Source: Candidatus Magasanikbacteria bacterium RIFOXYC2_FULL_42_28
GTDB lineage: Bacteria; Patescibacteriota; Patescibacteriia; Magasanikbacterales; GWA2-37-8
Assembly: GCA_001784435.1 (NCBI GenBank)
Contig: MFQZ01000009.1
Location: 11,324-75,323, forward strand
Length of the DNA: 64,000 nucleotides
Reading direction: 5' to 3'
Shown: piece by piece, positions 19,453 to 61,216 of the stretch
Position numbering within the stretch: the stretch's first letter is position 1
Layout: each line of letters starts with the position of its first letter
The notes under the pieces: model-generated
What the model saw: only the letters and a program-made list of their open reading frames with translations
Told to the model about the DNA's origin: nothing
The model's database searches: none
Made by a program: the position numbers and the translations under genes

Positions 19453-19453
19453 T

Positions 19454-47533: not shown

Positions 47534-49837
47534 ATGTTTCAGAAACAGTTGGCAAAATTTTTTGAGTTTGGGTCGTATATTTTATTGTTGTTATCAGTAT
47601 TGTTGGTGCCGATGGCCATTGATAACCAGCTGGTGAATTCGTATATCATACCAAAACAGTATGTATTAGGGGGATTGGTTTTGCTCGCGGCATTATTTTG
47701 GGCGGCGCGGGCGGTAGTAACTAAAAAGGTTTCTTATATTCAATCATTTGCCGACAAGCCCTTGATTTTATTTCTGTTAGTCGCTTTACTCACGGCAATT
47801 TTTTCTGCCAATCGTAGCAGTTCGTTTTTAGGAGTGGCTGATTATTATATTTTGAGTTTTGCGTCTTTTGTGGTTTCGGTGCTTTTTTATTTTTTAATTG
47901 TTAATCATTTCACCACGGCCAAACGTTGGCGTCTCGGCGTTGATTTGACGGTATTAGTTGGTGGTGTTTCGGCAACGTTATTTTTATTGCGCACTGTTTT
48001 TAATTTTGATGTTTTGTCTAAGTTGGGGATCTCGGCCTGGAATCTGATTGACCCAACTAACACCGCGTTTGGAATTTGGCTCGTTGCTATTTTTATGCTT
48101 TCGGCCGGTCAATTAATCAAGAAAAATTGTCCGGTCGGTCGGTCGTTGTTTAATTTTTTTGTGGCTTTGCTCGCGGTGGCGTGTCTCTTAACTTTAGGGT
48201 TTGATGTTTTGTGGTGGGTGTTGTTGATTGGTTTAGCGTTGCTGTTATTGTTAGGTGTAACATTTTTGCGTGAAGCGCGTTTGGGGTGGTTGACGGTTTT
48301 GTTTGCTCTGCTTGTTACCGATATAATTTTTATCACTTTTAATTCGCCTAAAGTTTTACAGACCAGCGTGCCGGTAGAAGTGGCGCTGGGCGCGCGACCA
48401 TCTTGGGATGTTACCAGCGCGACGCTTGGAGGCGGGGTAAAGAGTTTTCTTTTGGGTTCCGGTTTGGGTACTTTTGGCGTGGATTTTTCTCGTTATCGCA
48501 GTGTGGATTTTAACAACGACCCAGTCGCGTGGTCATTGCGTTTTAATCAACCGTTTAATACTTTATTGGCATTTTTGTCAGAGGGCGGGTTGTTGCTGGC
48601 GTTGGCGTTTGTTTTTGTGGTGGTCTTTTTCTTGGGGCATATTTTGTATGTCTGGCTTGGGCAAAGAGCGGAAGTAATGTTTGGCGGGTTGTCCGGAGAT
48701 TTGGGTTGGAAGTCCGGAGATTTGCGGTTTGAAATATTTTTAGTGTCTTTGGTTTGGGTGCTACTGACTATTTGCACGGGGTTTGCTTTTTTTGGACAAA
48801 GTTTGTGGTGGTTGTGGTGGTTTTTGCTTGGACTTTCCGCCAGCGGTTTGGGTTTTATTTATTCTAAGGCACATAATTTGCGCGAGTGGGAAATAGAAGA
48901 CGCGCCGCAATATAGCTTGTCCTTTTCTTTTATTTTAGTGGTATTGTCAGCCGGGATTGTAATGTCGGGGGTGATTGGGGCGCGAATGTATATGGCGGAA
49001 CGAGCGTACGCGGTCGCGGTTAGAGCCGATGATTTGGATACAGTAGAAATAAATTTAAAAAAGGCGATTAGTTTGCGTGATAATTACAGTGTTTATAATT
49101 TTTATATGGCGCGCTTGTTTTTGTCTCGGGCGGTTGAAGCCAGTAAAAATTCCAATCCAGACCCCGCGGTAATAAGCGCGCTTATGAGTAACGCGGTAAA
49201 TACCGCTCGTCGCGCTACCGATATCGCGCCGGCATCGGTGGGGTTGTGGGAAAATTTAGCCACGATGTATGAAAACGCGGCAGTGATAGTGCCGGAAGCG
49301 CGTGATTGGGCGGTGAAATCTTGGATGAAATGTACTGAATTAGAGCCCACCAACCCGGTCTTGTGGTTGCGACTGGGGAATAATTATTTGGCGAGCGGGA
49401 ATAACGAAGACGCGAAGAAAAGTTTTGAGGAGGCGATAAAATTAAAATCTGATTATGTCGTCGCGAGCATTTCTTTGTCGCAGATTTATGAGACCGAACA
49501 GAATTTTGAAAAGGCGGTTGAAATATACGAAAAAATTATGACCATAGCCGGCAATAACGCGGAGGTGGCTTATAACTATGGTCGTTTGTTGTATAACCGC
49601 AATGCCAAAGGTGATCGCGACGGGGCCGAACAGATTTGGCTAAAAGTGATTGAAGCGCAACCGAATTTCTCCAATGTTTTGTATAGTTTGGGGATGTTGT
49701 ATGAAACGCGTGGCGATAAATATAAAGCGTTAGATTATTATTATCAAGTAAAAGAATTAAATCCGGATAACAAAGATATCACAGCGAAGATTAAATCACT
49801 CGTCGGTGTACCGGTGGCTGAAGTCAATAAAAAATAA
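47534..49837 (+). CDS. O-antigen-ligase-like (Wzy_C) polytopic membrane protein with C-terminal TPR repeats
   Basis: ~12 TM helices with a large periplasmic loop are followed by TPR-like repeats (AEVAYNYGRLLYNRN...VLYSLGMLYETRGDKYKALDYYYQ). Confidence 0.6.
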   Translation: MFQKQLAKFFEFGSYILLLLSVLLVPMAIDNQLVNSYIIPKQYVLGGLVLLAALFWAARAVVTKKVSYIQSFADKPLILFLLVALLTAIFSANRSSSFLGVADYYILSFASFVVSVLFYFLIVNHFTTAKRWRLGVDLTVLVGGVSATLFLLRTVFNFDVLSKLGISAWNLIDPTNTAFGIWLVAIFMLSAGQLIKKNCPVGRSLFNFFVALLAVACLLTLGFDVLWWVLLIGLALLLLLGVTFLREARLGWLTVLFALLVTDIIFITFNSPKVLQTSVPVEVALGARPSWDVTSATLGGGVKSFLLGSGLGTFGVDFSRYRSVDFNNDPVAWSLRFNQPFNTLLAFLSEGGLLLALAFVFVVVFFLGHILYVWLGQRAEVMFGGLSGDLGWKSGDLRFEIFLVSLVWVLLTICTGFAFFGQSLWWLWWFLLGLSASGLGFIYSKAHNLREWEIEDAPQYSLSFSFILVVLSAGIVMSGVIGARMYMAERAYAVAVRADDLDTVEINLKKAISLRDNYSVYNFYMARLFLSRAVEASKNSNPDPAVISALMSNAVNTARRATDIAPASVGLWENLATMYENAAVIVPEARDWAVKSWMKCTELEPTNPVLWLRLGNNYLASGNNEDAKKSFEEAIKLKSDYVVASISLSQIYETEQNFEKAVEIYEKIMTIAGNNAEVAYNYGRLLYNRNAKGDRDGAEQIWLKVIEAQPNFSNVLYSLGMLYETRGDKYKALDYYYQVKELNPDNKDITAKIKSLVGVPVAEVNKK

Positions 49838-49850: not shown

Positions 49851-50489
49851 ATGCGTAATTTTTTGGCAATAATTTTAATCGCGCTTGGGCTTGTGGTTGA
49901 CCCGGTTATTTTGCGCGCGGCGATGTCGTCCACGGATTATTATATTTACGCGGATGATTTTAGTATGGGCGGTGGTTTGAGTACCGGTGGCGAATATAGT
50001 TTACAAGATACGATTGGTCAATCGCCGGTCGACGCAATTAGTGGTGGTAGTTATGCTTTAAGCGCCGGGTATCAATTTCAAACGCTTGGAACAATCAGCA
50101 TGTCAATTTCCAGTTCGTCGTTGAGTTTGGGGACGTTGTCTGCCACGGGCGCGTCGTCAACAGCCGAGACCACGGTTACGGTTATTACTGATTCTGCCAG
50201 TGGGTATGTTTTATCGGTTTCAGATGTAAGTGGCGAAAGTTTAACGCCGGTGGCCGATGACGCGGTGGATGGTAATGGTGATTCCGAGGAGTATGGGTTG
50301 GCGGTGAGCGGGAGTGACGCGGATTTTGCGACCGATGAACCGGTGGCGACCAGTTTAACATTGGCTTCCAATTCTGAAATAGCCAATGGTAACGCGACCG
50401 TTTTGACTTTTAAGGCAATTCGCGGGGTGTCTTCTACCGCCGATACCTATAGCCAGAGTATTACACTTTCGGCAGTGGCGAATTTTTAA
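49851..50489 (+). CDS. Secreted Ser/Thr-rich hypothetical protein
   Basis: A signal peptide is present, and the sequence is Ser/Thr/Gly-rich with no Cys or Trp. Confidence 0.35.
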   Translation: MRNFLAIILIALGLVVDPVILRAAMSSTDYYIYADDFSMGGGLSTGGEYSLQDTIGQSPVDAISGGSYALSAGYQFQTLGTISMSISSSSLSLGTLSATGASSTAETTVTVITDSASGYVLSVSDVSGESLTPVADDAVDGNGDSEEYGLAVSGSDADFATDEPVATSLTLASNSEIANGNATVLTFKAIRGVSSTADTYSQSITLSAVANF

Positions 50490-50539
50490 TCCCGCTTCGC
50501 CTTTGGCTACGCAGGACAAGTGCCTGATTTAATAGTTTA

Positions 50540-51418
50540 ATGGTCATGAAAAAAATTTTCTTAATTATTTTACTGGGGATTTTGGCACCGACTTTGGGGG
50601 CGCGCGCCTTTTCTTTAAGTCCATTGAAATATATTTTTTCTGTGGAACGTGGTGAAAGCACGGTGATTACAGTAACTCTAAATAATTATGAATCCGGGGT
50701 GATTGCCTTGGAGCCGGCGGTGGTGGGGATGAAAACCGACAAAGCCGGTCGGCCGGTTTATGATAGCACAGCCGAGGTAATTGGTTGGGTAAAGTCGGAT
50801 TGGAATTTTATAAATTTAAAAGAAGGCCAAGGCCAAAAAGTTCATTTTTTAGTTACCGTTCCAGCTGGCGCGTATCCGGGTGATTATTATTTAGGTGTCG
50901 GCGCGAAACGCGTTGCCGGTGTCGGCGCGGTAAGTATCGGTGAGCAACTTTTGACAGTAGTGAATTTGAAAGTGGCTGGAACTGCGCGCGAGGATTTGGT
51001 GGTGAAAAAATTTGAAGTTAGTGGAAAATTTTTTGAAAAAAATAAAAAATTTAATTTGGAAATTGAAAATAAAGGCAATGTGGAAATGCCGATAAGCGCG
51101 GTTTTAAAAATAAGCGATTGGCGTGGGCGGATAATTTTGGAACAGCCGGTTGCGGTGGGAAATAAAATTTTGCCATTAGCATCGCGAGTAGCATCAACCG
51201 ATTTTGTCATTGCGAGGAGCGAAGCGACGCGGCAATCTATCGTGCCGGGTTTGTATCAAGTGGATTTAACAGTTGATTACGGTTTGACTAAACAAAAAAT
51301 TACCGCGGTGGAAAATTTTTGGTATGTGCCAACTTGGACGTTGGGTGTGTTGGTGGGGGTGATTATATTGGTGGGATTAATTATTTTTATTAAAAATAGG
51401 AAAAATTTTGGGTATTAA
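50540..51418 (+). CDS. DUF916/DUF3324-like cell-surface protein with a C-terminal TM anchor
   Basis: A signal peptide is followed by FSLSPLKYIFSVERGESTVITVTLNNYESGVIALEPAV (a DUF916-like start). The C-terminal TM ends in the basic tail KNRKNFGY. Confidence 0.4.
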   Translation: MVMKKIFLIILLGILAPTLGARAFSLSPLKYIFSVERGESTVITVTLNNYESGVIALEPAVVGMKTDKAGRPVYDSTAEVIGWVKSDWNFINLKEGQGQKVHFLVTVPAGAYPGDYYLGVGAKRVAGVGAVSIGEQLLTVVNLKVAGTAREDLVVKKFEVSGKFFEKNKKFNLEIENKGNVEMPISAVLKISDWRGRIILEQPVAVGNKILPLASRVASTDFVIARSEATRQSIVPGLYQVDLTVDYGLTKQKITAVENFWYVPTWTLGVLVGVIILVGLIIFIKNRKNFGY

Positions 51419-51427
51419 ATATTACTC

Positions 51428-54400
51428 ATGTTTAGTCCGAAAAAAATATTTTTTACAATTTTGACAGCAGTGCTGGCGGTTGGTTTATCAACCGCCTCTT
51501 TAGTATTAGCCGAAACGCAAACCGGGGGGTTGACAGTGGGGGTTACTATTGGGAGTGACGCTGTTTGTGGAAATGGCGCGGTTGAAGGCGATGAGGCCTG
51601 TGATGCCGGCAGTAGTAACGGGCTTTGTTCCGCGACTTGTAGTACCAGTTGTACGGTTAAGGCCACGACCGATTGTGGTGGCGGTGGCGATACCGACAAT
51701 TCTCCGACAATTTCCAATGTAACCACTACTCTGATTACGGTTAACAGCGCAACGGTGAGCTGGAACGCGACTGATAACAACGGAATTTCCACCTCCACTT
51801 TTGTTTATGGAATTGATATCAATTATGGCAGTAGTGCGACAATATCAGGTTCCAATCCGTATAGCGTAAATTTATTCGGTTTATCTGCCAACACGGTTTA
51901 TTATTTTCAAATTTCCGTTACTGATACTGGCAGTCATACCGTTGAATCTACTGGCAGTTTTACGACTTTATCAACGGCGGTAGGAGATACCATCCCTCCT
52001 AATATTTTTAATGTTATTGTTTCCCCAATCGGCGTAACTATGGCGACAATTTCATTTGATACCAACGAGTTGACGACAGCGCAAATTAAATTTAGTTCCG
52101 ACTTTTCTTATGCCAGCAGTACGGCCTTGGACGCGGTTTTGGCTACCACACACACAATTTCAGTGCTGGGTTTATGGCCGGATACTACCTATCATTTTCA
52201 AATTATCGCCAATGATGAACCGAATAATACCACCACCACTTTGGATGCTACCTTTACTACTTTGCCGGCGCCGGCCGTGGCCGATGTTGGTCATTTTGAA
52301 TTATCACCGTCATTTGAAGCAATTACTTTAAGTTGGGATTTGCCTGATTCTCCGTATTACGACCATATTATATTAAATCGTCAAGTTACCGGCGATCCGG
52401 CCACATTGGTAGAGTTGCCGGTTGATCCATTGGATAGTTTATTTATCGATTATGGGATTGATTTTAATATCAATTATACCTATACGATTTATGTCGTAGA
52501 TATTTTTGACCAACAAAGCCAAGGGGTATCGGTAAATGGCGAAGTTTTAGCATTTGGTTTAGAGGATTGTGATAACGGTGATGTTGACGATGATGGCGAT
52601 GGTGATGCTGATTGTGGTGATTTAGACTCTTGTTTCTCCCACCCCCACTGTGTAATTGAGGAAGTGTGTCATGATGAAAATGGTGATGGCTTGGAAAATT
52701 GTGATGATCCGAGTTGCGCTGGCAATGCGGTATGTTTAGCATTACACGAAGATGAGATTTGCGGTAACTTGTTTAATGATAACGGCGATGATTTTGAAAG
52801 TGATTGCGAAGACCCTGACTGTGCCGGATTCCCCGACCCGCAATGTGTCCTTTTTGATGTCGTGGCTTGTTCGGACCAGCAAGACAACGATGGCGACGGC
52901 CAAATTGATTTTGGCAATGACACCGGTTGCGTGAGCGCTGGTGATAATGACGAAAGTGACGACACGGTGCCGAGTTTTTTACAGTTGAATGTTAATGATA
53001 TTAAATTTTTTGCCGGTAATCGTCAAATTCCTTTGGCGCCGGTTAATGAAGTGGTGAGCAGTTTGGCTGGTAGTAACTTTACTGTGGCGGTCGCGCCGGC
53101 AATTACTCCCCAGGCAGTTACCTTGGTTTTGGAAGGGGCCACTTATCAGTTTGGCTTTAATGCGGTGGATAATATTTATTATTCAGATTTTACTTTGCCA
53201 TTTGTTGGTGTGCATAGCGCTTATTTAAATATTGATTATGGCAATGGCCAACAGGATAGCGTATTGATTAAAATAAATTGTTTGCCTTGGGGGCAAGTGG
53301 AAAGTGGTGGTGAGCTAATTGCGGGCGTGGAAATGTTTTTGCTTGATACCAATAATGAAAAAATATATTTGGGTGAATACGGTCAAACTAATCCGGTTTT
53401 GACGAGCGCGAGCGGGTTATATGGCTGGTCGGTATTGCCTGGTCACTACCTCGTGCGCGCAAACAAGGAGGGATTTTATGAACGGACTGTTCAAATTTAT
53501 GAGGTAAAAAATAATTCCATTAACGCGAATATTGATTTAATTAAAATGCCGACTAATTGGTTAGGGGCCATAGACGCGGCGCGGGGGTTGGCTCTACAAG
53601 CGGTAAATGATGTTGCCGATAATCCGGCAGTGGAGCAAGTCGCCCAGCAGGTAGTGGCGCCGGTGGCAGTAGGGGTGTCAGCGGTGGGGACGATTTTGGT
53701 GGTGCCGTGGTGGAATTTGTTGGCGCTGTTACGTTTCTTATTTTTACAACCGCTTTTACTTATCGGTCGGGGCAAACGCAAACAGTGGGGCATGGTTTAT
53801 AATTCTTTGAGCAAAATGCCAATTGATTTGGCAATCGTGCGTTTGTTTGACGCGACCACCGGCAAATTGTTGCGTTCGCGTGTTACCGACGAACACGGTC
53901 GTTATGCGTTTATTATGCCACCAGGCAAATATCGTCTGCAAGTGGTAAAAATGAATATGACTTTTCCCTCCGTGTTGTTAGCCGGTATTACGCACGACGG
54001 CAATCGGCCGGATATTTATCATGGTGAAGAAATTATTGTTAATGAAAAAAATGTTTTGATTACGGCCAATGTCCCGCTTGATCCGTCCGGAGATGGTAAA
54101 ACGCCGAAACGGATTTTGCGTGAGCGGTTTTGGCGTAAAGTGCAGTCGGGCGTGTCCGGTTTGGGTTTGGTTTTCACTTTGGTCGCGTTATATATTTCAC
54201 CGCGTTGGTATATGTGGGTTTTGGCCGGGGCGCATATTGGTTTGATGTTGGTATTTAGACGTTTGGCAAAACCAAAAACTGCCAAGGGCTGGGGAATTGT
54301 TTCCGATACTGTCACGAGTAAACCGGTGGGGCGCACGGTGGCGCGTTTGTTTGATACCAAATTTAATAAATTGGTGGCCACCGAAGTTACTGATAAACAC

Positions 54401-54562
54401 GGGCGGTATAACTTTTTGGCCGGTGATAATAAGTATTATGTTACCTATGAGCATGAAAATTACGAGACGACTAAGACCGATGTACTGGATTTAACCGGTA
54501 AAGAAGAGGACGCGATCGCGACAGACGCGAAGTTAAAAAAGAAAGATTTATCCACAGAGTAA
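51428..54562 (+). CDS. Large surface protein with a myxo-type Cys-rich repeat, fibronectin-III-like domains, an Asp/Cys-rich module, CarbopepD_reg-like domains and C-terminal TM segments
   Basis: CGNGAVEGDEACDAGSSNGLCSATCSTSC matches CxxGxxExxExCDxG...C. Three segments resemble Fn3 (VSWNATDNNG.., ISFDTNELTT.., LSWDLPDSPY..). The Asp/Cys module is DCDNGDVDDDGDGDADCGDLDSC. Three DEHGRY/DKHGRY beta-sandwich units are present. Confidence 0.55.
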   Translation: MFSPKKIFFTILTAVLAVGLSTASLVLAETQTGGLTVGVTIGSDAVCGNGAVEGDEACDAGSSNGLCSATCSTSCTVKATTDCGGGGDTDNSPTISNVTTTLITVNSATVSWNATDNNGISTSTFVYGIDINYGSSATISGSNPYSVNLFGLSANTVYYFQISVTDTGSHTVESTGSFTTLSTAVGDTIPPNIFNVIVSPIGVTMATISFDTNELTTAQIKFSSDFSYASSTALDAVLATTHTISVLGLWPDTTYHFQIIANDEPNNTTTTLDATFTTLPAPAVADVGHFELSPSFEAITLSWDLPDSPYYDHIILNRQVTGDPATLVELPVDPLDSLFIDYGIDFNINYTYTIYVVDIFDQQSQGVSVNGEVLAFGLEDCDNGDVDDDGDGDADCGDLDSCFSHPHCVIEEVCHDENGDGLENCDDPSCAGNAVCLALHEDEICGNLFNDNGDDFESDCEDPDCAGFPDPQCVLFDVVACSDQQDNDGDGQIDFGNDTGCVSAGDNDESDDTVPSFLQLNVNDIKFFAGNRQIPLAPVNEVVSSLAGSNFTVAVAPAITPQAVTLVLEGATYQFGFNAVDNIYYSDFTLPFVGVHSAYLNIDYGNGQQDSVLIKINCLPWGQVESGGELIAGVEMFLLDTNNEKIYLGEYGQTNPVLTSASGLYGWSVLPGHYLVRANKEGFYERTVQIYEVKNNSINANIDLIKMPTNWLGAIDAARGLALQAVNDVADNPAVEQVAQQVVAPVAVGVSAVGTILVVPWWNLLALLRFLFLQPLLLIGRGKRKQWGMVYNSLSKMPIDLAIVRLFDATTGKLLRSRVTDEHGRYAFIMPPGKYRLQVVKMNMTFPSVLLAGITHDGNRPDIYHGEEIIVNEKNVLITANVPLDPSGDGKTPKRILRERFWRKVQSGVSGLGLVFTLVALYISPRWYMWVLAGAHIGLMLVFRRLAKPKTAKGWGIVSDTVTSKPVGRTVARLFDTKFNKLVATEVTDKHGRYNFLAGDNKYYVTYEHENYETTKTDVLDLTGKEEDAIATDAKLKKKDLSTE

Positions 54563-54602
54563 TTTTATTAAAAATGTGGTATAATATATGGAAGAGAAGT
54601 GA

Positions 54603-57600
54603 GTGATTATGGCAATTATAGGATTGAAAAATTTATTAAAATTATCAAGCCGAATTTTTGTAATATCCGCCATATTTTTGTCCGCAATTTTTAGTTTATG
54701 GTTATGGCAAAATAGCGCGGTCGCGGCGATCGCGCCATCAGTAATTACTTACCAAGGTAAAGTATTAGTAAGCGGTTCACCAGCGTCATCTACTTTATCA
54801 ATGAAGTTTGTTTTGTATGACTCTTTAACTGGTGGCACTGCGCTCTATACTGCTTCCGGCACTTTGCCAACCACGAGCACAATTAGTATTACTCCTTCCA
54901 GTGGTATATTTAGTGTTGATCTTGGTGGTAGTGGTACAAACACGATTGATCCAACTATTTTTCAAAATAACAGTAGTGTATATTTAGAAGTAACCATCGG
55001 CAGTCAAACCCTTACCCCCCGAAAACAAATCACTGCCGCTCCTTATGCTTTCAACGCTAAATATCTAGATGGTCTCGCCACTTCATCATTCGCCAAACTT
55101 GGATCCAATGAAACGGTTACCGGCACTTGGACCTTTTCGGCAACCACGACTATGGTCACGACGACGGTGAGTGGGAGGTTAGGTATTGGGACGACCACGC
55201 CAGATCAAGCGTTGACAGTGGTGGGGAGTATTAGTAATCCGGTGAATGGGAATTCTGGGATAACAGAAATTGCGACTCTATCAACAGGTAACGACCCGTT
55301 TGCGATATTTGTCTCTGGTCGGTATGCTTATGTGGCCAATTCTGCTTCTAGCACCATGACTATAATTGATATTTCTAAACCAACCGTGCCGGTGCAGGTA
55401 GCAACAGTTTCTGTCGGAAATTCACCGCGTTCCGTATTTGTTTCTGGTCGTTATGCGTATGTTGGAAATTATGGACATGGCACTATATCCATCGTGGACG
55501 TGTCTAATCCATTTTCTCCTGTTGTTGTTGCTACCCAGCAGGATTTGCCGGGTATCCCATCTTCTATTTTTATCTCCGGTCGGTATTTGTATACCACCTT
55601 ACAAGGCCAAGATATCTTGGCGGTTGTTGATATATCAGATCCGCTGACTCCGGTTTTGGCTGCGGCTGTCACTGTCGGTGATTACCCACAATCAGTTTTT
55701 GTCTCCGGTCGTTATGCTTATGTGGCGAATAGAGCATCCGGCACCATTTCTGTGGTTGACATATCTAATCCTTTGTCTCCAGTCCAAATTGCCACGACCT
55801 CTGTTGGTGTTTGGCCTAGTTCTATAGCTGTCTCTGGTCGTTATGCTTATGTGGCCCATGATTCTGATTTGTTTATTTCTGTAGTGGACGTGTCTAACCC
55901 CGCTATCCCAGTTCAAGTGGCTACCACCTCTGTCGGTTTTGTACAGTCGTCCGTATTTGTTTCCGGTCGTTATGCGTATTTTAGCACGGGTATTACTGCA
56001 AATGATTTAGGCAATCTTTCGGTTGTGGATATTTTAAATCCGTTGGTACCGGTTTTAGTGGCAACTACGCCGGTTGGAAAAAATCCACAATCAGTTTTTG
56101 TCTCCGGTCGTTATGCTTATGTGGCTAATGCGGGGCCTCTTGCGGGCAATGGTGGGGAAAATACTATTTCCATCATCGATCTCTCCGGCGCCGAATTTTC
56201 CACCCTAATCGCCCACTCCGCCGAAGTCGGCCAAATCCAATCGCGCAATGACATCATCGCTCAAGGCATAGTTGGCGCCAACAGTTTACAAATCGGCAGT
56301 GGTGGTATCCTCTCTAACGGGCCCATCAGTATCACCGCCACCGATACCTATTCTTACTTCGGCGGTGGCATTACCGCCACCGGCACAGTAACCACTACTA
56401 ATTTGGCGGTCATCGGCAATGCCACTTTTGGTGGCACATTGTCGCTGGGCAATACCGACATCACCGGCAATCTTACTGTCTCCGGCAACGCTACTACCAC
56501 TGGTAATCAAGTAATATCCGGCACACTTAATATTTCCGGCACTTCCACTCTCGTTACCACCACTGCCACTGCCTTAACTGTCACTGGCACATCAACTTTA
56601 ACAAATATTTCATCCACTGGCATTTCCAATCTAGGCACTTTAAACGTTTCTGGCAGTACCATTCTTTCTGGCACATTAAATGTAACCGGCACATCAACTT
56701 TGGCCACTACCACCATTTCCAAATTAACCATTAGCAGTCAAGGTATTATTATTTCCAGTAGCACTCCGGTCGTTACTTCTTCCACTTTGTATAATGTTGG
56801 TGACACCCTTTATTGGAACGGCAACGCCTTATCAACCTCTACTGGTAGCGGTTTGCCGTCTAGTATTGATGGCCAAATTTTATTCTCCGCTGGTTCTACT
56901 TGGACCGCGACTTCGGCGATTAGTATTGTGAGTACAACTGGTAATGTTGGTATCGGTACCACCAACCCAGGTACTTTGCTCACAGTCCACAACACCAATA
57001 TCGCTTCGGCCACTTCTTCCACTTTAAAACAATCATATTTATCAGTTGACCAAATGGCCTTGTCACAATTAGAAGGTGGAGCATATTTTGGCCGAACAAA
57101 AATAAAAAATAATAATTGGGTAGTTCAAGTAGCGGATAATTTTGTTTTGAGTGAGGCACCGTTATCTATGAAGGGTTCGGCTGGTTCGGCTGATGGGGAA
57201 ATTTTAGCAATAGTTTTAGATGGCAATCAAATCGGGCTGTTTTCCGGTTTTGATGCTGATGTTCAATTGGTGGCTAGCGTTCAAAATTGGGAGGATATCG
57301 CGATGTCCGTTGATGGTAAAATTATGTCGGCTGTGATTGATAATGGCGGGATTCATCGTTCCATTGATTATGGCGCCACTTGGGCGACCTCATCCGCTTT
57401 GACAAAAAATTGGACAGGTATTGCAATGTCGGCCGATGGTAAATATCAAACGGCCGTGGCCACCGGTGATAGCGTTTATATTTCTGCTGATTTTGGTGTT
57501 ACCTGGATCGCCAAAGACAGCAGTCGCGCTTGGACCGGTGTGGCCATGTCATCGGACGGTAAATTACAAATTGCCACTGTTTCAAGCACCGGCAATATTT

Positions 57601-60600
57601 ATCTTTCGGTTGATTATGGTAGTACTTGGGTTGCTAAAGCCAGTGCCAATGATTGGGACAGCGTGGTTATGTCGGCTGATGGGCGGGTAGTATTGGCCGG
57701 AGTGAATAGTGGCAATCTTTATCTTTCCACTAATTACGGCTATTCTTGGACAACCACTACCGCTCCGACCGGAGCTTGGAGCGCGGTCGGTATGGATGGC
57801 GATGGTAAATATCAAGTGGCCGGAATTTCGGGTGGGGCGTTATATATATCTGGTGATTATGGTTCCACTTGGGCCACTTCAACGTCAGCTACGAGTGGGG
57901 TTTGGTATGATATTGACGTTACGGCCGATGGCGCTACGGTGGTTGCAACGGACAATGTCGCGGGGTATTATATCAATCAGGCCGATCAGTTTAGTTTAAA
58001 AAATATTGCGATTGGCGCGACTACGGTTGCCAGCGGTTTGGCGCTTGATGTTACCGGTGTTGGTTCTTTTTCCGGTAATTTATCGGTTGGTGGCGGTTTA
58101 ACTGTTACCGGTAATGCTACCAGCACTAATTTTATTGCGACCGGCAATGTTGGAATTGGCACCACAACACTTACCGAAAGATTAAATGTTAAAGGTAATA
58201 TTAATTTGGTCGGCAATCTTAATTTAGCAACCGGTACGATAAAATATTCCGGCAGTAATTTATTGTCAATTACCGGTGGCGCGTCATCAGTTGCTTTAGG
58301 GGTAAATGCCGGGCACAGTGCAACCGGCACAGGTAATGTGTTTGTTGGCAGTGGAGCCGGCCAAAACAATGATTCTGGTTATAACAATACTTTTATTGGT
58401 CTTAATGCCGGGCAGACTAATACCTCATCGGCCGGGAACACCTTTATCGGGGCGACCGCTGGCGCTAGCAACACATCTGGTAGTAGTAATGTCTTTGTTG
58501 GTTCGGGGGCGGGGGGGCTTAACACTACCGGTCTGGGTAATTCGTTTTTTGGTGCTCAAGTGGCCAGTGCCAATACCAGCGGTAGCATTAATTCGTTTTT
58601 TGGAGCCTACGCCGGCATTGCTAATACTGAAGGCGGCAATAATTCGTTTTTTGGAGCATACGCCGGCACTGCCAACATTACCGGTAATTATAATGTATTT
58701 ATTGGCGAATACGCCGGATCAAGTGTTACTTCCGGGTATTCCAATACTTTTTTGGGCGCGCGCTCTGGTTATTTGAATATTATTGGGGCCGGTAATGTGT
58801 TTTTAGGCAATCAAGCCGGTTATAACGAGACAGGCTCTAATAAATTATATATTGCCAATTCCAACACAGATTCGCCTTTGATTTATGGTGATTTTAGCGC
58901 GAGTGCCTTGACGATAAATGGAAGTTTAACGGTGTCATCAACTAACACTTCTACTTTTAATAGTAGCATTAATATCACCAGCGGATGTTTCGCGGTCGGT
59001 GGAAATTGTTTGTCAGACGGCACTACTCTTAATACCACCGTGCTTAATGTTAGTAGTACTCTTACCACCAACAGCACCACAATTTTGGTTGGTAATAATT
59101 ATTTTAATTTTACCGGGGCAAATATTGGTGGAAATGATTATGCGTCTTTATCTATCGGTAATGGCGCATCTTCCACTAACGGAGCGGTAGCAATTTGGGG
59201 TGATACCACGGTTGGGCCAAGATTTATGTTAGTGGCGACCACATCCGCGCCTTCTGCCACTGTTGGCGATAGTCCGATTTTTGTCGTTGATATGACTAGT
59301 GGTTATGCGCGCGTGGATATTGGCAGTACCGGTAACGCCAAATCAGGATTGTTAAGATTATATGATAACGCCGGTGTGAATAAAATTTATTTGAGCGCCA
59401 GTTCTACCGACGGCGATTCGTTTGTGTTGGATAATTTTTTAGTGGGCGCGAATTCCGAGAGTATTGCCAACACTGGTTTTGTTTTAACTAATAACAACAG
59501 TTTATACACCGAAGGCGATTTGGGTGTTAATGGTAATATTTATACCGACGGGGCAATTTATATTTCTGGCACTTCTACTTTGGCTATTACCACTATTACC
59601 GCCTTAACTGTATCTGGAGATGTAACTCTATCTACCTCCACTATCTTTTTAAATAATGTTGGCAGCTTCACCAGCTCAACCGCTTTTATTTTTAATGTTG
59701 CTAATTTTTCTTTGTCTGCCGCTGATAGATATATTTTGTCTTTACGTTCTAATAACGCACCAGTATTTTCCGTCTCCGCCAATGGTGATGTTAATACAGT
59801 AGGTAGTTTGCATGCGTTTTCAGCCACTGTTGGGGCCGATGGTAATCCCGGTGACTTGGCCGAACGCGTTGATATTGCCGTTGATGATATCGCCGAAGCT
59901 GGCGATGTGGTCGTGGTTGATCCAAATAATATTGATACCTATCGCCGTAGTAGTGAGGCATATAGTCAATCCGTGGCTGGAGTAATTTCTACCGCTCCAA
60001 CCATCGTAGTTGGTGATGGTAAAACTGATTACACCGCTGTCATGGCTATGATTGGTCGCGTGCCAGTTAAAATTTCCAGTGAAAACGGCGCGATTAAGCG
60101 TGGTGATTTATTAGTGTCGGCATCGCTTCCCGGTTACGCGATGAAATATAATCCGGAAGATGATAATGGTTTGAAGATGGTGGGTATTGTGGGTGTGGCT
60201 TTGGATAGTTTTGCCGATGTCGGCGGAACCGGGAAAATTATGGCTTTAATCCGCACCGGTTGGGTCAATTCGCGTGGGCAAACTATCAATGATATTAAGA
60301 GTGACTTAGAAACTTTGGCGCAGAGTCAAGGTGTGAATATTAATTCTAATCCAAGTGATTTGACAGTGGAGCCAAGTGGCGGTAATTTGGTGTATAGCAG
60401 TGGTAATTTGAATTTACATGGTGGCAGTTTGTTGGGCGTAGCGGCGATTTCCGGCTTGAATGGTCGGTGGGAAATAAACGCTGATGGTTGGTTTATCACG
60501 CGCGTTGACACCACGAGTGGGCAAAAAGAAATGTATGGTTTGCAATCACCGGCCGCGGAATTTGTATTTTCCAGCTCATCACAGTTGATGAATGGTGAAG

Positions 60601-61106
60601 CGCGGGTTACTTTTGATGTTGCCGCGCAGGAAATTATTGATACGGACGCGATATTAAAAGTAAGTGTAACTTTAACATCGGGCGAAGCAATGGGTGTGTA
60701 TGTAACTGATAAAAATGCGACTGGTTTTACGGTAAAAGAAGTAGGGAATGGCACAAGTAACGCGACTTTTGATTGGGTGGTGGTGGTAAAGCAAAAAGAT
60801 CCCAATACTCCGGTAAGCGCGCCGGTTAGTGAACCAATAATAGACACGCCCGTTTCCTCTGGCGATTCTAGCGGTTCGTCAACCACCTTAACCACCGAAA
60901 CGCCACTGGTTATTGAATCAACCACAACCTCAACTACTGAGCCAGCGCCAGCACCGGTTGAAATCCTAACCCAGGAACCGACTGCCACAGTTGAGCCAAC
61001 ACCAGAAACAACGCCTGTGCCTGAACCAGCGCCGGTAGTTGTTGAGCCCACCCCTGAACCAGCGCCAGCACCGGTTGAAATTCCATCCTCGGAACCAGCA
61101 CCTTGA
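54603..61106 (+). CDS. Giant (2167 aa) cell-surface protein with LVIVD-like propeller repeats, BNR/Asp-box repeats, NxFxGxxAG 14-residue repeats and a Pro/Thr/Glu-rich tail
   Basis: After a signal/TM segment there are ~9 units of VFVSGRYAYVAN...ISVVDISNP (LVIVD-like). Six SxDxGxTW Asp-boxes follow (SIDYGATW, SADFGVTW, SVDYGSTW, STNYGYSW, SGDYGSTW). There are ~12 tandem repeats of the form NVFVGSGAG.., NTFIGLNAG.., NSFFGAYAG... The C-terminus has PAPAPVE/EPTPE repeats. Confidence 0.6.
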   Translation: MIMAIIGLKNLLKLSSRIFVISAIFLSAIFSLWLWQNSAVAAIAPSVITYQGKVLVSGSPASSTLSMKFVLYDSLTGGTALYTASGTLPTTSTISITPSSGIFSVDLGGSGTNTIDPTIFQNNSSVYLEVTIGSQTLTPRKQITAAPYAFNAKYLDGLATSSFAKLGSNETVTGTWTFSATTTMVTTTVSGRLGIGTTTPDQALTVVGSISNPVNGNSGITEIATLSTGNDPFAIFVSGRYAYVANSASSTMTIIDISKPTVPVQVATVSVGNSPRSVFVSGRYAYVGNYGHGTISIVDVSNPFSPVVVATQQDLPGIPSSIFISGRYLYTTLQGQDILAVVDISDPLTPVLAAAVTVGDYPQSVFVSGRYAYVANRASGTISVVDISNPLSPVQIATTSVGVWPSSIAVSGRYAYVAHDSDLFISVVDVSNPAIPVQVATTSVGFVQSSVFVSGRYAYFSTGITANDLGNLSVVDILNPLVPVLVATTPVGKNPQSVFVSGRYAYVANAGPLAGNGGENTISIIDLSGAEFSTLIAHSAEVGQIQSRNDIIAQGIVGANSLQIGSGGILSNGPISITATDTYSYFGGGITATGTVTTTNLAVIGNATFGGTLSLGNTDITGNLTVSGNATTTGNQVISGTLNISGTSTLVTTTATALTVTGTSTLTNISSTGISNLGTLNVSGSTILSGTLNVTGTSTLATTTISKLTISSQGIIISSSTPVVTSSTLYNVGDTLYWNGNALSTSTGSGLPSSIDGQILFSAGSTWTATSAISIVSTTGNVGIGTTNPGTLLTVHNTNIASATSSTLKQSYLSVDQMALSQLEGGAYFGRTKIKNNNWVVQVADNFVLSEAPLSMKGSAGSADGEILAIVLDGNQIGLFSGFDADVQLVASVQNWEDIAMSVDGKIMSAVIDNGGIHRSIDYGATWATSSALTKNWTGIAMSADGKYQTAVATGDSVYISADFGVTWIAKDSSRAWTGVAMSSDGKLQIATVSSTGNIYLSVDYGSTWVAKASANDWDSVVMSADGRVVLAGVNSGNLYLSTNYGYSWTTTTAPTGAWSAVGMDGDGKYQVAGISGGALYISGDYGSTWATSTSATSGVWYDIDVTADGATVVATDNVAGYYINQADQFSLKNIAIGATTVASGLALDVTGVGSFSGNLSVGGGLTVTGNATSTNFIATGNVGIGTTTLTERLNVKGNINLVGNLNLATGTIKYSGSNLLSITGGASSVALGVNAGHSATGTGNVFVGSGAGQNNDSGYNNTFIGLNAGQTNTSSAGNTFIGATAGASNTSGSSNVFVGSGAGGLNTTGLGNSFFGAQVASANTSGSINSFFGAYAGIANTEGGNNSFFGAYAGTANITGNYNVFIGEYAGSSVTSGYSNTFLGARSGYLNIIGAGNVFLGNQAGYNETGSNKLYIANSNTDSPLIYGDFSASALTINGSLTVSSTNTSTFNSSINITSGCFAVGGNCLSDGTTLNTTVLNVSSTLTTNSTTILVGNNYFNFTGANIGGNDYASLSIGNGASSTNGAVAIWGDTTVGPRFMLVATTSAPSATVGDSPIFVVDMTSGYARVDIGSTGNAKSGLLRLYDNAGVNKIYLSASSTDGDSFVLDNFLVGANSESIANTGFVLTNNNSLYTEGDLGVNGNIYTDGAIYISGTSTLAITTITALTVSGDVTLSTSTIFLNNVGSFTSSTAFIFNVANFSLSAADRYILSLRSNNAPVFSVSANGDVNTVGSLHAFSATVGADGNPGDLAERVDIAVDDIAEAGDVVVVDPNNIDTYRRSSEAYSQSVAGVISTAPTIVVGDGKTDYTAVMAMIGRVPVKISSENGAIKRGDLLVSASLPGYAMKYNPEDDNGLKMVGIVGVALDSFADVGGTGKIMALIRTGWVNSRGQTINDIKSDLETLAQSQGVNINSNPSDLTVEPSGGNLVYSSGNLNLHGGSLLGVAAISGLNGRWEINADGWFITRVDTTSGQKEMYGLQSPAAEFVFSSSSQLMNGEARVTFDVAAQEIIDTDAILKVSVTLTSGEAMGVYVTDKNATGFTVKEVGNGTSNATFDWVVVVKQKDPNTPVSAPVSEPIIDTPVSSGDSSGSSTTLTTETPLVIESTTTSTTEPAPAPVEILTQEPTATVEPTPETTPVPEPAPVVVEPTPEPAPAPVEIPSSEPAP

Positions 61107-61144
61107 CGAAATTGAAAGTTGATTGTATAATCTAATTGTTTTTT

Positions 61145-61215
61145 AAGGGCCCGTAGTATAACGGTAATACACGTCCATGGCATGGATGAGTTAAGGGTTC
61201 GATTCCCTTCGGGTC
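61145..61215 (+). tRNA. tRNA-Ala (GGC)
   Basis: The acceptor GGGCCCG/CGGGTCC has G3:U70 and A73. The anticodon loop is ATGGCAT and the T-loop TTCGATT. Confidence 0.8.
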
Positions 61216-61216
61216 C

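What the first reader, a model, noticed from the sequence alone, without database searches (positions are those of the whole stretch)
49851..61106. Four-gene cell-surface module ending in two giant multi-repeat proteins
The co-directional genes are a secreted Ser/Thr-rich 212-aa protein, a DUF916/DUF3324-like anchored protein, a 1044-aa protein (myxo-type Cys repeat, Fn3-like, Asp/Cys module, CarbopepD_reg-like, TM) and a 2167-aa protein. The layout recalls Firmicute WxL/DUF916 surface-complex clusters, but with very different, enormous cargo. The module sits after an O-antigen-ligase-TPR membrane protein. This is a strong candidate for the apparatus by which an episymbiont contacts its host or prey.
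Basis: partly seen in the sequence, partly recalled or inferred. Interest (0 to 1): 0.75.

Follow-up and report, generated by a model that had tools for sequence, protein, structure and literature searches.

The report
Pam-like pilus module with giant adhesins
This is a conserved five-gene cell-surface locus of a Candidatus Magasanikbacteria (CPR) genome: a pilin-like subunit and a membrane-anchored chaperone-like protein, both distant relatives of the recently described CPR 'Pam' pilus and the Firmicute WxL system, sit next to a 1044-aa membrane stalk protein and a mosaic tail-fibre-like giant. It is a plausible host-contact apparatus and a new variant of known kinds, not a wholly new system.

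Summary
All four ORFs exist exactly as described, and the organism is Candidatus Magasanikbacteria RIFOXYC2_FULL_42. The 212-aa protein is a distant homologue of PamT, the tip pilin of the CPR Pam pilus. It scores far below the equivalog cut-off, and its C-domain folds like chaperone-usher pilins. The 292-aa protein is a signal peptide, two Ig-like domains and a TM helix (pLDDT 90.9). It is homologous to PamC/D-position proteins of a bona fide pam operon (hhalign 99.8%) and to E. faecium WxLIP (DUF916/DUF3324).

The 1044-aa protein starts with a conserved donor-strand-like motif, then Fn3 domains and TM segments. That gives it a PamR-like anchor architecture without sequence homology. The 2167-aa protein carries a Bdellovibrio MAT-like N-domain, which heads more than 12,000 proteins of very different length, followed by mosaic propeller and fibre repeats.

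The order TPR protein, pilin, chaperone, stalk is the same in all 20 related genomes recovered where the contig allows. Fifteen of them also carry a gene with the giant's N-domain. The 'O-antigen ligase' and 'myxo Cys repeat' labels were not confirmed. Verdict: a reduced Pam/WxL-type strand-complementation display module. Assembly order and host contact are inferred.

The parts
47534..49837 (+). 767-aa polytopic membrane protein (about 10-12 hydrophobic segments, residues 1-480) with a C-terminal TPR domain (about residues 575-750). It is the first gene of the conserved cluster.
   Evidence: TPR families score E=1e-16. An orthologue sits directly upstream of the pilin gene in 20 of 20 Magasanikbacteria loci. 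No Wzy_C/O-antigen-ligase hit was found. Weak VpsP-family hits occur in 6 of 14 orthologues. The gene is absent in the more distant loci L026 and L027.
49851..50489 (+). 212-aa PamT-like pilin subunit: signal peptide (about residues 1-24), a conserved N-terminal region (residues 25-78) and a pilin C-domain (residues 79-212).
49923..50084 (+). Conserved N-terminal region of the mature pilin (residues 25-78; 'AMSSTDYYIYADDFSMGG...SYALSAGYQ'). It is a candidate strand-donating or tip region.
   Evidence: These are the most conserved residues of the family (A5). They are nevertheless unstructured in the AF2 monomer, with pLDDT about 40 for residues 19-76. The motif is shared with PamT of L005 and L027. 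It aligns with the pre-C-domain linker region of the two-domain pilins of L027.
50540..51418 (+). 292-aa membrane-anchored PamC/D- and WxLIP-type protein: signal peptide, two Ig-like beta-sandwich domains (residues 24-145 and 153-262) and a C-terminal TM helix (residues 265-290).
   Evidence: AF2 pLDDT is 90.9. Foldseek's top hits are WxLIP 9i25_C and 9i1y at E=2.6e-13, followed by RbmA and the chaperone-usher chaperones CfaA, CsuC, Caf1M, DraB and FimC. The family profile hits EfmWxLIP1 at E=2.4e-7. It hits the PamC-position protein P0036 of a bona fide pam operon at E=2.3e-21. hhalign of A1 against A9 gives 99.8% probability, E=1.8e-28.
51428..54562 (+). 1044-aa stalk/anchor protein. In order: signal peptide; N-terminal strand motif; Cys-rich module; about 3 Fn3 domains (residues 95-370); acidic Cys/Asp module (residues 381-501); Ig/CarboxypepD_reg-like domains; TM segments (about residues 742-773, plus a less hydrophobic stretch near residues 895-940 read from the sequence by eye); two further CarboxypepD_reg domains.
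   Evidence: Pfam fn3 and CarboxypepD_reg hits. acid_disulf_rpt at E=1.3e-5. TM segments and Cys positions. An orthologue follows the chaperone gene in every locus where the contig extends that far. In L013, L019-L022 and L002 it is split into an N-part gene and a C-part gene.
51524..51553 (+). Candidate N-terminal donor strand of the 1044-aa protein (residues 33-42, 'GGLTVGVTIG'; orthologue consensus '[IV]-N-V-x-[ML]-x-V-P'), followed by a Gly/Pro/Ser-rich linker.
   Evidence: In all 21 orthologues examined (18 full-length or N-part genes plus the N-part ORFs of L020-L022), an alternating-hydrophobic strand directly follows the signal peptide. The same motif ('TDVNVYGIVPE') opens a 120-aa TM-anchored protein directly after the chaperone gene in L027. 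It also resembles the 'QVNISGTVDP' linker just before the C-domain of L027's two-domain pilins. The donor function is inferred, not shown.
54603..61106 (+). 2167-aa mosaic tail-fibre-like giant surface protein, with an N-terminal signal/anchor segment at residues 11-36.
   Evidence: ORF. Hydrophobic segment. Domain hits. A gene 5 carrying the same N-domain is present in 15 of 20 Magasanikbacteria loci, with lengths from 408 to more than 1900 aa.
54711..55097 (+). Conserved N-terminal beta-rich domain of the giant (residues 37-165), similar to the MAT N-terminal domain.
   Evidence: NF053851 Bdello_MAT_N: E=7.8e-7, 29 bits, cut-off 60. 11 of 14 orthologues hit it. It is conserved in all 15 orthologues while the rest of the protein varies. 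There are 12,473 cluster representatives with this domain at E<=1e-3. Among the 150 best listed, it sits within the first ~70 residues of proteins of 145-4591 aa. The same domain heads a 1154-aa Laminin_G protein at the end of the Pam-like operon of L027 (E=1e-19).
55200..56222 (+). Seven-bladed LVIVD beta-propeller (residues about 200-540).
   Evidence: Pfam LVIVD at E=8.7e-40 with 7 stretches. The 'SGRY[AL]Y' motif recurs at residues 238, 281, 325, 368, 411, 454 and 501.
57300..57902 (+). BNR/Asp-box repeat region (5 'S-x-D-x-G-x-T-W' motifs, residues 920-1090). It is probably a second beta-propeller.
   Evidence: Motif positions. BNR/BNR_6 hits are weak, E about 1e-3. F510_1955-like at E=4.4e-10, below the cut-off.
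58326..58808 (+). Ten tandem 17-residue 'G-x-x-N-x-F-x-G' repeats (residues 1242-1402), of tail-fibre/beta-helix type.
   Evidence: Motif positions. A DNA tandem repeat of period 51 lies at 58538-58675.
60444..60797 (+). Conserved C-terminal domain of the giant (residues 1948-2065).
   Evidence: It is homologous to the whole extracellular part of the 246-aa TM-anchored gene-5 product of L004 (E=2e-25). It is retained in L012, L014, L016 and L017. No family hit was found.
60798..61103 (+). Pro/Thr/Glu-rich low-complexity C-terminal tail (residues 2066-2167).
   Evidence: Read directly from the translation.

Best explanation
This is a reduced, lineage-specific relative of the CPR Pam pilus and Firmicute WxL systems. 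It is an usher-less surface-display module built on beta-strand complementation, and it is conserved as a five-gene unit in Magasanikbacteria.

Proposed mechanism:
1. All products are Sec-exported.
2. The 292-aa Ig-Ig-TM protein, a PamC/D and WxLIP homologue, stays in the cytoplasmic membrane. It captures the 212-aa PamT-like subunit by completing its pilin-type Ig fold with one of its own strands.
3. The subunit is then handed over by donor-strand exchange. Either it goes onto the conserved N-terminal strand of the 1044-aa protein, or it first goes onto further copies of itself through its conserved N-terminal region. The 1044-aa protein has Fn3 domains and TM helices, so it would act as the PamR-like membrane anchor or terminator.
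4. The result would be a short fibre or cap, carried on a long Fn3 stalk.
5. The 2167-aa protein is the variable adhesin. Its MAT-like N-domain would dock it to this scaffold or to the envelope. Its mosaic body (LVIVD propeller, BNR propeller, fibre repeats) would contact the host or a substrate.
6. The TPR membrane protein is a lineage-specific accessory, either an assembly platform or a modifying enzyme.

Shown here: homology and fold of the pilin-like and chaperone-like proteins, the domain anatomy, and conservation and linkage of the genes.

Inferred: strand exchange, who donates to whom, polymer versus cap, docking of the giant, and any role in host contact.
For: Pilin.
- PamT hit at E=1.1e-9; 18 of 20 orthologues hit PamT.
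- hhalign against Saccharimonadia PamT: 95.7% probability.
- The Magasanikbacteria-only profile A5 (residues 79-210) hits the C-domains of L027's two-domain pilins at E=2.4e-10 to 5e-14; A3, which also contains one Saccharibacteria PamT, reaches 5e-13 to 1e-15.
- The AF2 C-domain has pLDDT above 90, while the most conserved N-terminal 55 residues are disordered in the monomer.
- Fold matches are dominated by donor-strand fibre subunits.

Chaperone.
- AF2 pLDDT 90.9.
- Top fold matches are WxLIP bound to long WxL, then chaperone-usher chaperones.
- EfmWxLIP1 at E=2.4e-7.
- E=2.3e-21 to the PamC-position protein of an operon that contains PamT and PamR above the NCBIfam cut-offs.
- hhalign 99.8% probability.

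Anchor.
- The N-terminal strand motif is conserved in 21 orthologues.
- It is shared with a 120-aa TM-anchored protein at the same operon position in L027, and resembles the linker of Pam two-domain pilins.
- The Pam preprint predicts that PamR (Fn3 domains, TM helix, extra N-terminal strand) terminates and anchors the pilus.

Giant.
- MAT_N-like domain heading proteins of highly variable length.
- The same domain heads the last gene of a full Pam-like operon in another CPR lineage.
- The preprint notes a 'tail fibre-like protein' at the centre of pam neighbourhoods.

Linkage.
- The gene order is identical in 20 of 20 species-level genomes.
- Gaps between genes are 9-50 nt, and terminator-like sites are fewer than in shuffled sequence.
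Against: - No assembly step was tested.
- The 212-aa protein scores far below the PamT equivalog cut-off (38 versus 240 bits). The preprint describes PamT as lacking a donor linker, so self-polymerisation is uncertain.
- No PamA/B/E-type two-domain pilin and no PamR homologue occurs in the window or within +-10 kb in 20 relatives. A long pilus may therefore not be made here, or its parts may lie elsewhere in the genome.
- The 1044-aa and 2167-aa proteins have no detectable pilin domain.
- The MAT_N hit is below the curated cut-off.
- Part of the synteny may only reflect general collinearity, because ychF and RmuC are also syntenic.
Confidence: 0.6

Rival explanations
1. A static WxL-type anchoring complex, not a pilus. 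The 292-aa protein would be a permanent WxLIP-like holder that stays bound to the 212-aa protein on the envelope, as in the E. faecium WxLIP-long WxL complex. No donor-strand exchange or polymerisation would occur. The pair would simply form a surface receptor or anchor beside two independent large surface proteins.
For: The best structural and sequence matches of the 292-aa protein are WxLIP entries, including one crystallised bound to its WxL partner. The WxLIP literature proposes a stabilising, anchoring role with strand insertion rather than a chaperone cycle. There is only one pilin-like gene per locus in this lineage.
Against: There is no WxL domain anywhere in the cluster. The 212-aa protein is homologous to Pam pilin C-domains, which form donor-strand filaments seen by cryo-EM. 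The 292-aa protein is at least as clearly related to PamC/D-position proteins. The conserved strand motif at the N-terminus of the next gene matches the pilin linker motif.
Confidence: 0.25
2. Co-located but functionally separate surface genes. The pilin/chaperone pair would be a minimal Pam remnant. The 1044-aa and 2167-aa proteins would be unrelated envelope or adhesin proteins that sit nearby only because Magasanikbacteria genomes are collinear in this core region.
For: The housekeeping flanks (RmuC, holA and PolA upstream; tRNA-Ala and ychF downstream) are also syntenic in relatives. Neither large protein has a pilin domain. The body of gene 5 is highly variable, and in L004 it is replaced by a 246-aa protein.
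Against: The genes are co-directional with 9-50 nt gaps, and terminator-like sites within the cluster are fewer than in shuffled sequence (12 versus a mean of 19.6). In unrelated CPR lineages, an Fn3 protein (L026) or a strand-plus-TM protein (L027) still follows the chaperone gene. A protein headed by the same N-domain closes the Pam-like operon in L027. The preprint independently reports a tail-fibre-like gene linked to pam operons.
Confidence: 0.1
3. An envelope polysaccharide or glycoprotein biogenesis locus. The TPR membrane protein would be a Wzy/WaaL/PglL-type ligase or polymerase, and the downstream Ser/Thr-rich proteins would be its glycosylated substrates (S-layer-like coat).
For: Weak VpsP (polysaccharide biosynthesis) hits occur in 6 of 14 orthologues. 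The 212-aa and 2167-aa proteins have 27% and 24% Ser+Thr. PamA carries a post-translational modification on Ser356.
Against: No Wzy_C hit was found in 14 orthologues at E<1, and no WaaL or PglL-type structure was matched by profile. No glycosyltransferase or sugar-nucleotide genes lie in the cluster. The TPR gene is absent from the more distant pilin-chaperone loci L026 and L027.
Confidence: 0.05

Closest known systems
CPR Pam pilus of Candidatus Mycosynbacter amalyticus (PamA/B/E pilins, PamT tip, PamC/D membrane-anchored chaperones, PamR anchor); bioRxiv 10.64898/2026.03.03.709456; NCBIfam NF058578/NF058579/NF058581
   Same: - The 212-aa protein aligns end to end with bona fide PamT, and its C-domain matches Pam pilin C-domains.
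- The 292-aa protein has the PamC/D architecture (signal peptide, two Ig domains, C-terminal TM helix) and is homologous to PamC/D-position proteins.
- There is no usher and no trans-envelope machine.
- An Fn3-containing TM protein with a free N-terminal strand follows, as for PamR.
- A tail-fibre-like gene is linked to the cluster.
   Different: - There is one pilin-like gene and one chaperone, rather than at least four pilins and two chaperones.
- No two-domain PamA/B/E pilin and no PamR homologue is present.
- The PamT score is 38 bits against a cut-off of 240.
- There is no ATP-synthase neighbourhood.
[quoted passage not shown]
- The anchor is 1044 aa with four TM segments, Cys-rich modules and CarboxypepD_reg domains.
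- A conserved TPR polytopic membrane protein leads the cluster.
Firmicute WxL clusters (WxLIP = DUF916/PF06030 + DUF3324/PF11797 + TM helix, with small and large WxL proteins); PMC10599100; PDB 9i1y, 9i25
   Same: The 292-aa protein's best sequence-profile and fold matches in the PDB are E. faecium WxLIP. It has the same domain order and a C-terminal TM helix. WxLIP is predicted to insert a strand into its partner. As in WxL clusters, a small partner protein and a large multi-domain surface protein are encoded alongside.
   Different: There is no WxL domain (PF13731) in any cluster protein, and Pfam DUF916/DUF3324 does not hit the window protein directly. The partner here has a Pam/chaperone-usher pilin-type fold. 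No LPXTG protein is present. The large proteins carry no C-terminal WxL domain.
Classical and archaic chaperone-usher pili (Pap/Fim, Csu, CFA/I, Caf1)
   Same: The chaperone-like protein has the two-Ig-domain fold (CfaA, CsuC, Caf1M, FimC, DraB). The 212-aa C-domain has a pilin-type fold (PapG pilin domain, CfaB, CsuA/B, FimA/G/H). It also has a conserved N-terminal segment that is unstructured in the monomer.
   Different: There is no usher and no outer membrane. The chaperone is membrane-tethered. Sequence identity is only 9-16%, and fold scores for the pilin are modest. Donor-strand exchange was not demonstrated.
Bdellovibrio bacteriovorus MAT (mosaic adhesive trimer) fibres; PMC10769870; NCBIfam NF053851
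   Same: [quoted passage not shown] The body includes tail-fibre-type repeats. The proposed role is recognition of another cell's surface.
   Different: The N-domain hit is below the cut-off (29 versus 60 bits). No S74 chaperone/protease domain was detected. Trimerisation was not tested. The body contains two beta-propellers, which the MAT passages read here do not mention. The organism is a CPR bacterium without an outer membrane.

Membership tests
CPR Pam pilus system | PamT equivalog (NF058579, at least 240 bits) | tested here: not met
   The window protein scores 38 bits, E=1.1e-9. 18 of 20 orthologues hit the model, all below the cut-off, best E=2e-14. It is homologous (hhalign 95.7%) but not an equivalog.
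CPR Pam pilus system | [quoted passage not shown] | tested here: inconclusive
   The window protein does not hit at E<0.1. 6 of 20 orthologues hit below the cut-off, best E=5e-7. However, the family profile matches the C-domains of four L027 pilins at about 1e-10 to 1e-15.
CPR Pam pilus system | PapD-like chaperone with a C-terminal TM helix (PamC/PamD) | tested here: met
   AF2 model with two Ig domains and a TM helix, pLDDT 90.9. Chaperone-usher chaperone fold hits. E=2.3e-21 to the PamC-position protein of a verified pam operon. hhalign 99.8%.
CPR Pam pilus system | Two-domain major pilins (PamA/PamB/PamE) | tested here: not met
   Only one pilin-domain ORF occurs in the 64-kb window, and only one per locus in 20 relatives within +-10 kb. 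The rest of the genome was not searched.
CPR Pam pilus system | PamR (RbmA-like, NF058578) terminator/anchor | tested here: not met
   No PamR hit for any cluster protein at E<0.1. The 1044-aa protein is only an architectural analogue: N-terminal strand, Fn3 domains and TM segments.
CPR Pam pilus system | Filament assembled by donor-strand exchange | not testable with these tools
   This needs multimer modelling, cryo-EM or biochemistry. Only indirect signs were found: a conserved N-terminal region that is disordered in the monomer.
CPR Pam pilus system | Conserved neighbourhood with ATP synthase genes | tested here: not met
   None of the 25 proteins scanned against Pfam (20 flanking ORFs plus the five cluster proteins) hit an ATP-synthase family; about 20 smaller ORFs of at least 120 aa were not scanned. 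The flanks are RmuC, holA, PolA, tRNA-Ala and ychF. The verified pam operon L005 does adjoin ATP synthase.
Firmicute WxL cluster | WxLIP protein (DUF916 + DUF3324 + TM helix) | tested here: inconclusive
   The Pfam models do not hit the window protein. Fold and profile evidence are positive, and distant family members carry PF06030.
Firmicute WxL cluster | At least two WxL-domain proteins in the cluster | tested here: not met
Chaperone-usher pili | Outer-membrane usher | tested here: not met
   No usher family hit among the cluster proteins or the neighbours scanned.
Chaperone-usher pili | Periplasmic PapD-like chaperone and Ig-like pilin completed by a donor strand | tested here: inconclusive
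   Fold similarity is present for both proteins. The incomplete fold and the exchange itself were not tested.
MAT (mosaic adhesive trimer) fibre superfamily | Conserved beta-rich N-domain of about 130 aa directly after the signal peptide (NF053851, at least 60 bits) | tested here: inconclusive
   29 bits, E=7.8e-7. 11 of 14 orthologues hit below the cut-off. Position and size match the description in PMC10769870.
MAT (mosaic adhesive trimer) fibre superfamily | Variable, swappable C-terminal body on the conserved N-domain | tested here: met
   Only residues about 15-167 are conserved among 15 orthologues of 408 to more than 1900 aa. 12,473 representatives of 145-4591 aa share the N-domain.
MAT (mosaic adhesive trimer) fibre superfamily | Intertwined trimeric fibre, with or without an S74 chaperone/protease | not tested
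   No S74 hit was found.

The most novel reading that the evidence does not exclude
The Magasanikbacteria locus may show, in minimal form, that three systems described separately are parts of one ancient, usher-less strand-complementation display system of monoderm-like envelopes. The three are Firmicute WxL/WxLIP complexes, CPR Pam pili and MAT-type mosaic fibres. In this reading the PamT-like subunit, held by a WxLIP/PamC-type membrane protein and tethered by the N-terminal donor strand of an Fn3 stalk, is the still unidentified surface element that docks the conserved N-domain of MAT-like fibres. Swapping the fibre body would then retarget the cell to new hosts.
Probability: 0.15. Interest if true: 0.8.

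Novelty: new variant of a known kind. Interest (0 to 1): 0.6.

Why it matters
CPR bacteria are thought to live attached to other cells, yet very few of their contact structures are known. The Pam pilus was described only in 2026, and mainly for Saccharimonadia and Microgenomatia.

- This locus extends Pam-type components to Magasanikbacteria in a stripped-down form of one pilin-like subunit and one chaperone. That makes it a simpler system in which to test how usher-less donor-strand assembly works.
- It links the Pam chaperones to the Firmicute WxLIP family by sequence and fold. The Pam preprint does not mention this link, and no paper in the library combines 'WxL' with 'donor strand'.
- It places a MAT-like mosaic fibre in the same operon as candidate docking partners. 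The MAT paper leaves open what the conserved N-domain binds, and this locus makes that question directly testable.
- The N-domain heads more than 12,000 protein clusters, so the answer would apply widely.

Tried and rejected
- Direct Pfam DUF916/DUF3324, WxL and usher assignments for the cluster proteins: no hits.
- O-antigen ligase identity of the TPR protein: Pfam scan of 14 orthologues, a PDB profile search of the TM domain alone, and NCBIfam gave only TPR hits and weak VpsP hits.
- 'Myxo-type Cys repeat': TIGR02232 reached only E=0.17.
- Hidden pilin or chaperone domains in the two large proteins or elsewhere in the window: none.
- Phage origin: PHROGs gave only two weak unknown-function hits, and the flanks are housekeeping genes.
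- PDB sequence search with the pilin profile and with the giant N-domain profile: nothing significant.
- PDB sequence search with the giant: only generic beta-propeller hits.
- The first attempt to scan genomes with the broad alignment A4 failed for lack of a conserved stretch. It was repeated with A5.
It was repeated with the window sequence alone.
- Literature searches for a paper on the 9i25 WxLIP-WxL structure, and for any paper linking WxL with donor-strand exchange, found none in the library.
- An RNA family scan of the window found only four tRNAs.

Full report
OBSERVATION

- 49851-50489, 212 aa
- 50540-51418, 292 aa
- 51428-54562, 1044 aa
- 54603-61106, 2167 aa (GTG start, with an ATG two codons later)

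All lie on the + strand, separated by 50, 9 and 40 nt. They begin 13 nt after a 767-aa gene at 47534-49837. The 212-aa protein is identical to 'hypothetical protein A3J93_05245' of Candidatus Magasanikbacteria bacterium RIFOXYC2_FULL_42, so the window comes from a CPR genome. The rest of the window is housekeeping: dnaA, dnaN, PBP1, PolA, holA, RmuC, H+-PPase, trigger factor and ychF. The cluster is therefore part of the core chromosome and not a mobile island. PHROGs gave nothing meaningful.

THE 212-aa PROTEIN

- Composition. It has an N-terminal hydrophobic signal segment, 26.9% Ser+Thr and no Cys.
- Family hits. Pfam finds nothing. NCBIfam finds CPR_pilus_PamT at E=1.1e-9, which is 38 bits against an equivalog cut-off of 240. 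18 of 20 orthologues hit PamT and 6 of 20 hit the Pam pilin C-domain model, all below cut-off.
- What PamT is. PamT is the proposed tip pilin of the Pam pilus of Ca. Mycosynbacter amalyticus. That pilus is a donor-strand-exchange filament solved by cryo-EM (bioRxiv 10.64898/2026.03.03.709456).
- Homology. The window protein aligns end to end with a PamT that passes the cut-off, L005 at 290.6 bits. A Magasanikbacteria-only profile matches a Saccharimonadia PamT profile with 95.7% probability.
- C-domain. Profile positions 79-210 hit the C-terminal domains of four two-domain pilins in a Pam-like operon of another CPR lineage, L027. A5 gives about 1e-10 to 5e-14 and A3 gives 5e-13 to 1e-15.
- Structure. 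AF2 gives a confident beta-sandwich for residues 78-212 (pLDDT above 90). It leaves residues 19-76 unstructured, although these are the most conserved residues of the family ('AMSSTNYYIYAD..GG...SY.I.GGYQ').

THE 292-aa PROTEIN

- Direct searches. A word-based search found only six relatives. A profile search found 50, all CPR where named, and several of the distant ones carry PF06030/DUF916.
- Link to a real pam operon. One hit, P0036 (E=2.3e-21), lies in a Saccharibacteria locus, L005, next to ATP synthase. That locus contains PamT and PamR above the NCBIfam cut-offs and three further Pam-pilin-domain proteins (one above the domain cut-off, two below), in the gene order of the M. amalyticus operon. 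This puts P0036 at the PamC position and a 354-aa paralogue at the PamD position.
- Profile-profile comparison. hhalign of the Magasanikbacteria-only profile against these PamC/D-type proteins gives 99.8% probability, E=1.8e-28, over 242 columns.
- Structure. The AF2 model (pLDDT 90.9) shows a signal helix, two beta-sandwich domains and a C-terminal TM helix.
- Fold matches. Foldseek's top hits are WxLIP of E. faecium (9i25_C 'bound to long WxL', and 9i1y; E=2.6e-13). Next come RbmA and the chaperone-usher chaperones CfaA, CsuC, Caf1M, DraB and FimC. The family profile also hits EfmWxLIP1 by sequence at E=2.4e-7.
- Consequence. The Pam preprint never mentions WxL or DUF916, and no paper in the library combines 'WxL' with 'donor strand'.

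THE 1044-aa PROTEIN

- Domains. Confirmed hits are fn3 and three stretches of CarboxypepD_reg. The acidic double-disulfide repeat is below cut-off and the myxo repeat reaches only E=0.17. There are 21 Cys and TM segments around residues 742-773.
- N-terminal strand. Across the 18 full-length or N-part orthologues, and the three N-part ORFs of L020-L022, the first residues after the signal peptide form a conserved alternating-hydrophobic strand. The consensus is '[IV]-N-V-x-[ML]-x-V-P'; the window has 'LTVGVTIG'. A Gly/Pro/Ser-rich linker and the first Fn3 domain follow.
- The same motif elsewhere. 'TDVNVYGIVPE' opens a 120-aa protein with a C-terminal TM helix directly after the chaperone gene in L027. 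It also resembles 'QVNISGTVDP' just upstream of the C-domain of L027's two-domain pilins, which is the position of the donated linker in PamA/B.
- Interpretation. PamR is described as Fn3 domains plus a TM helix plus an extra N-terminal strand that is predicted to plug the last pilin. The 1044-aa protein has that architecture without sequence homology to PamR. I infer that it is the membrane anchor that donates the terminal strand.
- Split genes. In several relatives the protein is split into an N-part gene and a C-part gene.

THE 2167-aa PROTEIN

- N-domain. After a signal/anchor segment, residues 37-165 hit NCBIfam Bdello_MAT_N at E=7.8e-7, below cut-off. 11 of 14 orthologues also hit it. 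[quoted passage not shown] That domain is thought to bind an unidentified predator surface element, and the tips are variable (PMC10769870).
- Body. The domains that follow are a 7-blade LVIVD propeller (E=8.7e-40), five BNR motifs, ten 17-residue fibre-type repeats, a conserved C-terminal domain and a Pro/Thr-rich tail.
- Conservation pattern. Among orthologues only the N-domain is constant.
- Distribution. In a library of 1.84 billion representatives, 12,473 proteins match this N-domain at E<=1e-3. Among the 150 best matches listed, the match starts within the first ~70 residues of proteins of 145-4591 aa.
- Link to Pam operons. In L027 a 1154-aa Laminin_G protein headed by this domain (E=1e-19) is the last gene of a Pam-like operon. 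This fits the preprint's remark that a 'tail fibre-like protein' is central in pam neighbourhoods.

CONSERVATION

A genome scan with the pilin motif returned 20 species-level genomes, almost all labelled Magasanikbacteria.
- Wherever the contig reaches, the order is TPR protein, pilin, chaperone, stalk.
- 15 of the 20 also carry a gene 5 headed by the giant's N-domain.
- ychF follows in the four of the 20 loci (and in L004) whose sequence reaches it.
- Each locus has exactly one pilin-like gene and one chaperone-like gene. The window also has only one of each.
- In the window, terminator-like sites within the cluster are fewer than in shuffled sequence (12 versus 19.6), and the best promoter-like site sits just after the giant, before tRNA-Ala.
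- Part of the synteny may be simple collinearity, since RmuC and ychF are also conserved. However, the pilin-chaperone-strand/Fn3 order persists in the distant loci L026 and L027.

THE TPR PROTEIN

The TPR domain is clear. The 'O-antigen ligase' label could not be confirmed. The gene is absent from L026 and L027, so it appears to be a lineage-specific accessory.

MECHANISM

Best explanation (confidence about 0.6): a reduced Pam/WxL-type strand-complementation display module.
1. All products are exported by Sec.
2. The membrane-tethered Ig-Ig protein captures the PamT-like subunit.
3. The subunit is handed by donor-strand exchange to the N-terminal strand of the Fn3 stalk, possibly after self-polymerisation through its conserved N-terminal region.
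4. The MAT-like giant acts as the swappable adhesin, docked through its N-domain.

Homology, folds, anatomy and linkage are shown. Every assembly step and the host-contact role are inferred.

Rivals:
- A static WxL-like anchoring complex (0.25).
- Merely co-located surface genes (0.1).
- A glycan or glycoprotein biogenesis locus (0.05).

COMPARISON AND NOVELTY

The locus is not a canonical pam operon. It has no PamA/B/E and no PamR, its PamT-like protein scores below cut-off, and it has no ATP-synthase context. It is not a WxL cluster, because it has no WxL domains. It is not a chaperone-usher system, because it has no usher. It works like these systems and shares homologous parts with the first two. 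I rate it a new variant of a known kind.

The points of interest are the minimal composition, the WxLIP-PamC/D link, the donor-strand-like N-terminus of the stalk, and the operon linkage of a MAT-like fibre to candidate docking partners.

LIMITS

- No multimer modelling was possible, and only two monomer models were made.
- Only 64 kb of this genome was searched for other Pam parts.
- The pilin fold scores and the MAT_N score are modest.
- The lifestyle of the organism is unknown.

Noticed in passing
window 15713-18462 (- strand), with GC skew across 1-20000: dnaN (15713-16828) and dnaA (17089-18462) lie in the window. GC skew changes sign between about 8 and 18 kb, so the chromosomal replication origin is probably inside this window.
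   Followed up: partly
window 19822-21069 (+) and 26283-27854 (+): Two unusual gene fusions. One joins an EamA-type transporter to a riboflavin kinase domain. The other joins an ABC ATPase to an NMT1/THI5-like binding domain.
   Followed up: no
window 60326-61234 (-): A 302-aa antisense ORF overlaps the Pro/Thr-rich 3' end of the giant gene and tRNA-Ala (61147-61218). It is almost certainly a shadow ORF of the low-complexity region.
   Followed up: partly
L002 2926-4041; L020 about 7180-8290; L021; L022: Where the 1044-aa protein is split, the separate N-part protein (strand motif plus Fn3) ends in a duplicated 'DDF[IV]D..D[IV]S..V.KFN ... NLNGD..VDAQDIS.VLSNWN' segment that looks like a dockerin. 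This could re-attach it non-covalently to a partner. It was read from the translations only and not tested with an HMM.
   Followed up: no
L028 1-1675 and 8832-11323: In another CPR genome (1.03-Mb contig), two tandem paralogues of the chaperone-like protein (390 and 440 aa) sit a few genes from proteins with Cohesin and Dockerin Pfam hits, and next to a 1704-aa protein.
   Followed up: no
L027 11066-11428: A 120-aa protein made of a signal peptide, a 'TDVNVYGIVPE' strand and a C-terminal TM helix lies directly after the chaperone gene of a full Pam-like operon. It is a candidate minimal donor-strand membrane anchor.
   Followed up: partly
L004 14001-14738: In this relative, gene 5 is only 246 aa: an N-terminal TM segment plus a domain homologous to residues 1948-2065 of the window giant. 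That C-terminal domain can therefore stand alone. No family was found for it.
   Followed up: partly
L008, L010, L012, L013, L015, L017, L018, L023 (record titles): Eight of the 20 related contigs are deposited as 'uncultured Gammaproteobacteria bacterium' (TPA assemblies). They nevertheless carry the Magasanikbacteria-type cluster at 45-50% identity, so the taxonomic labels look wrong.
   Followed up: no
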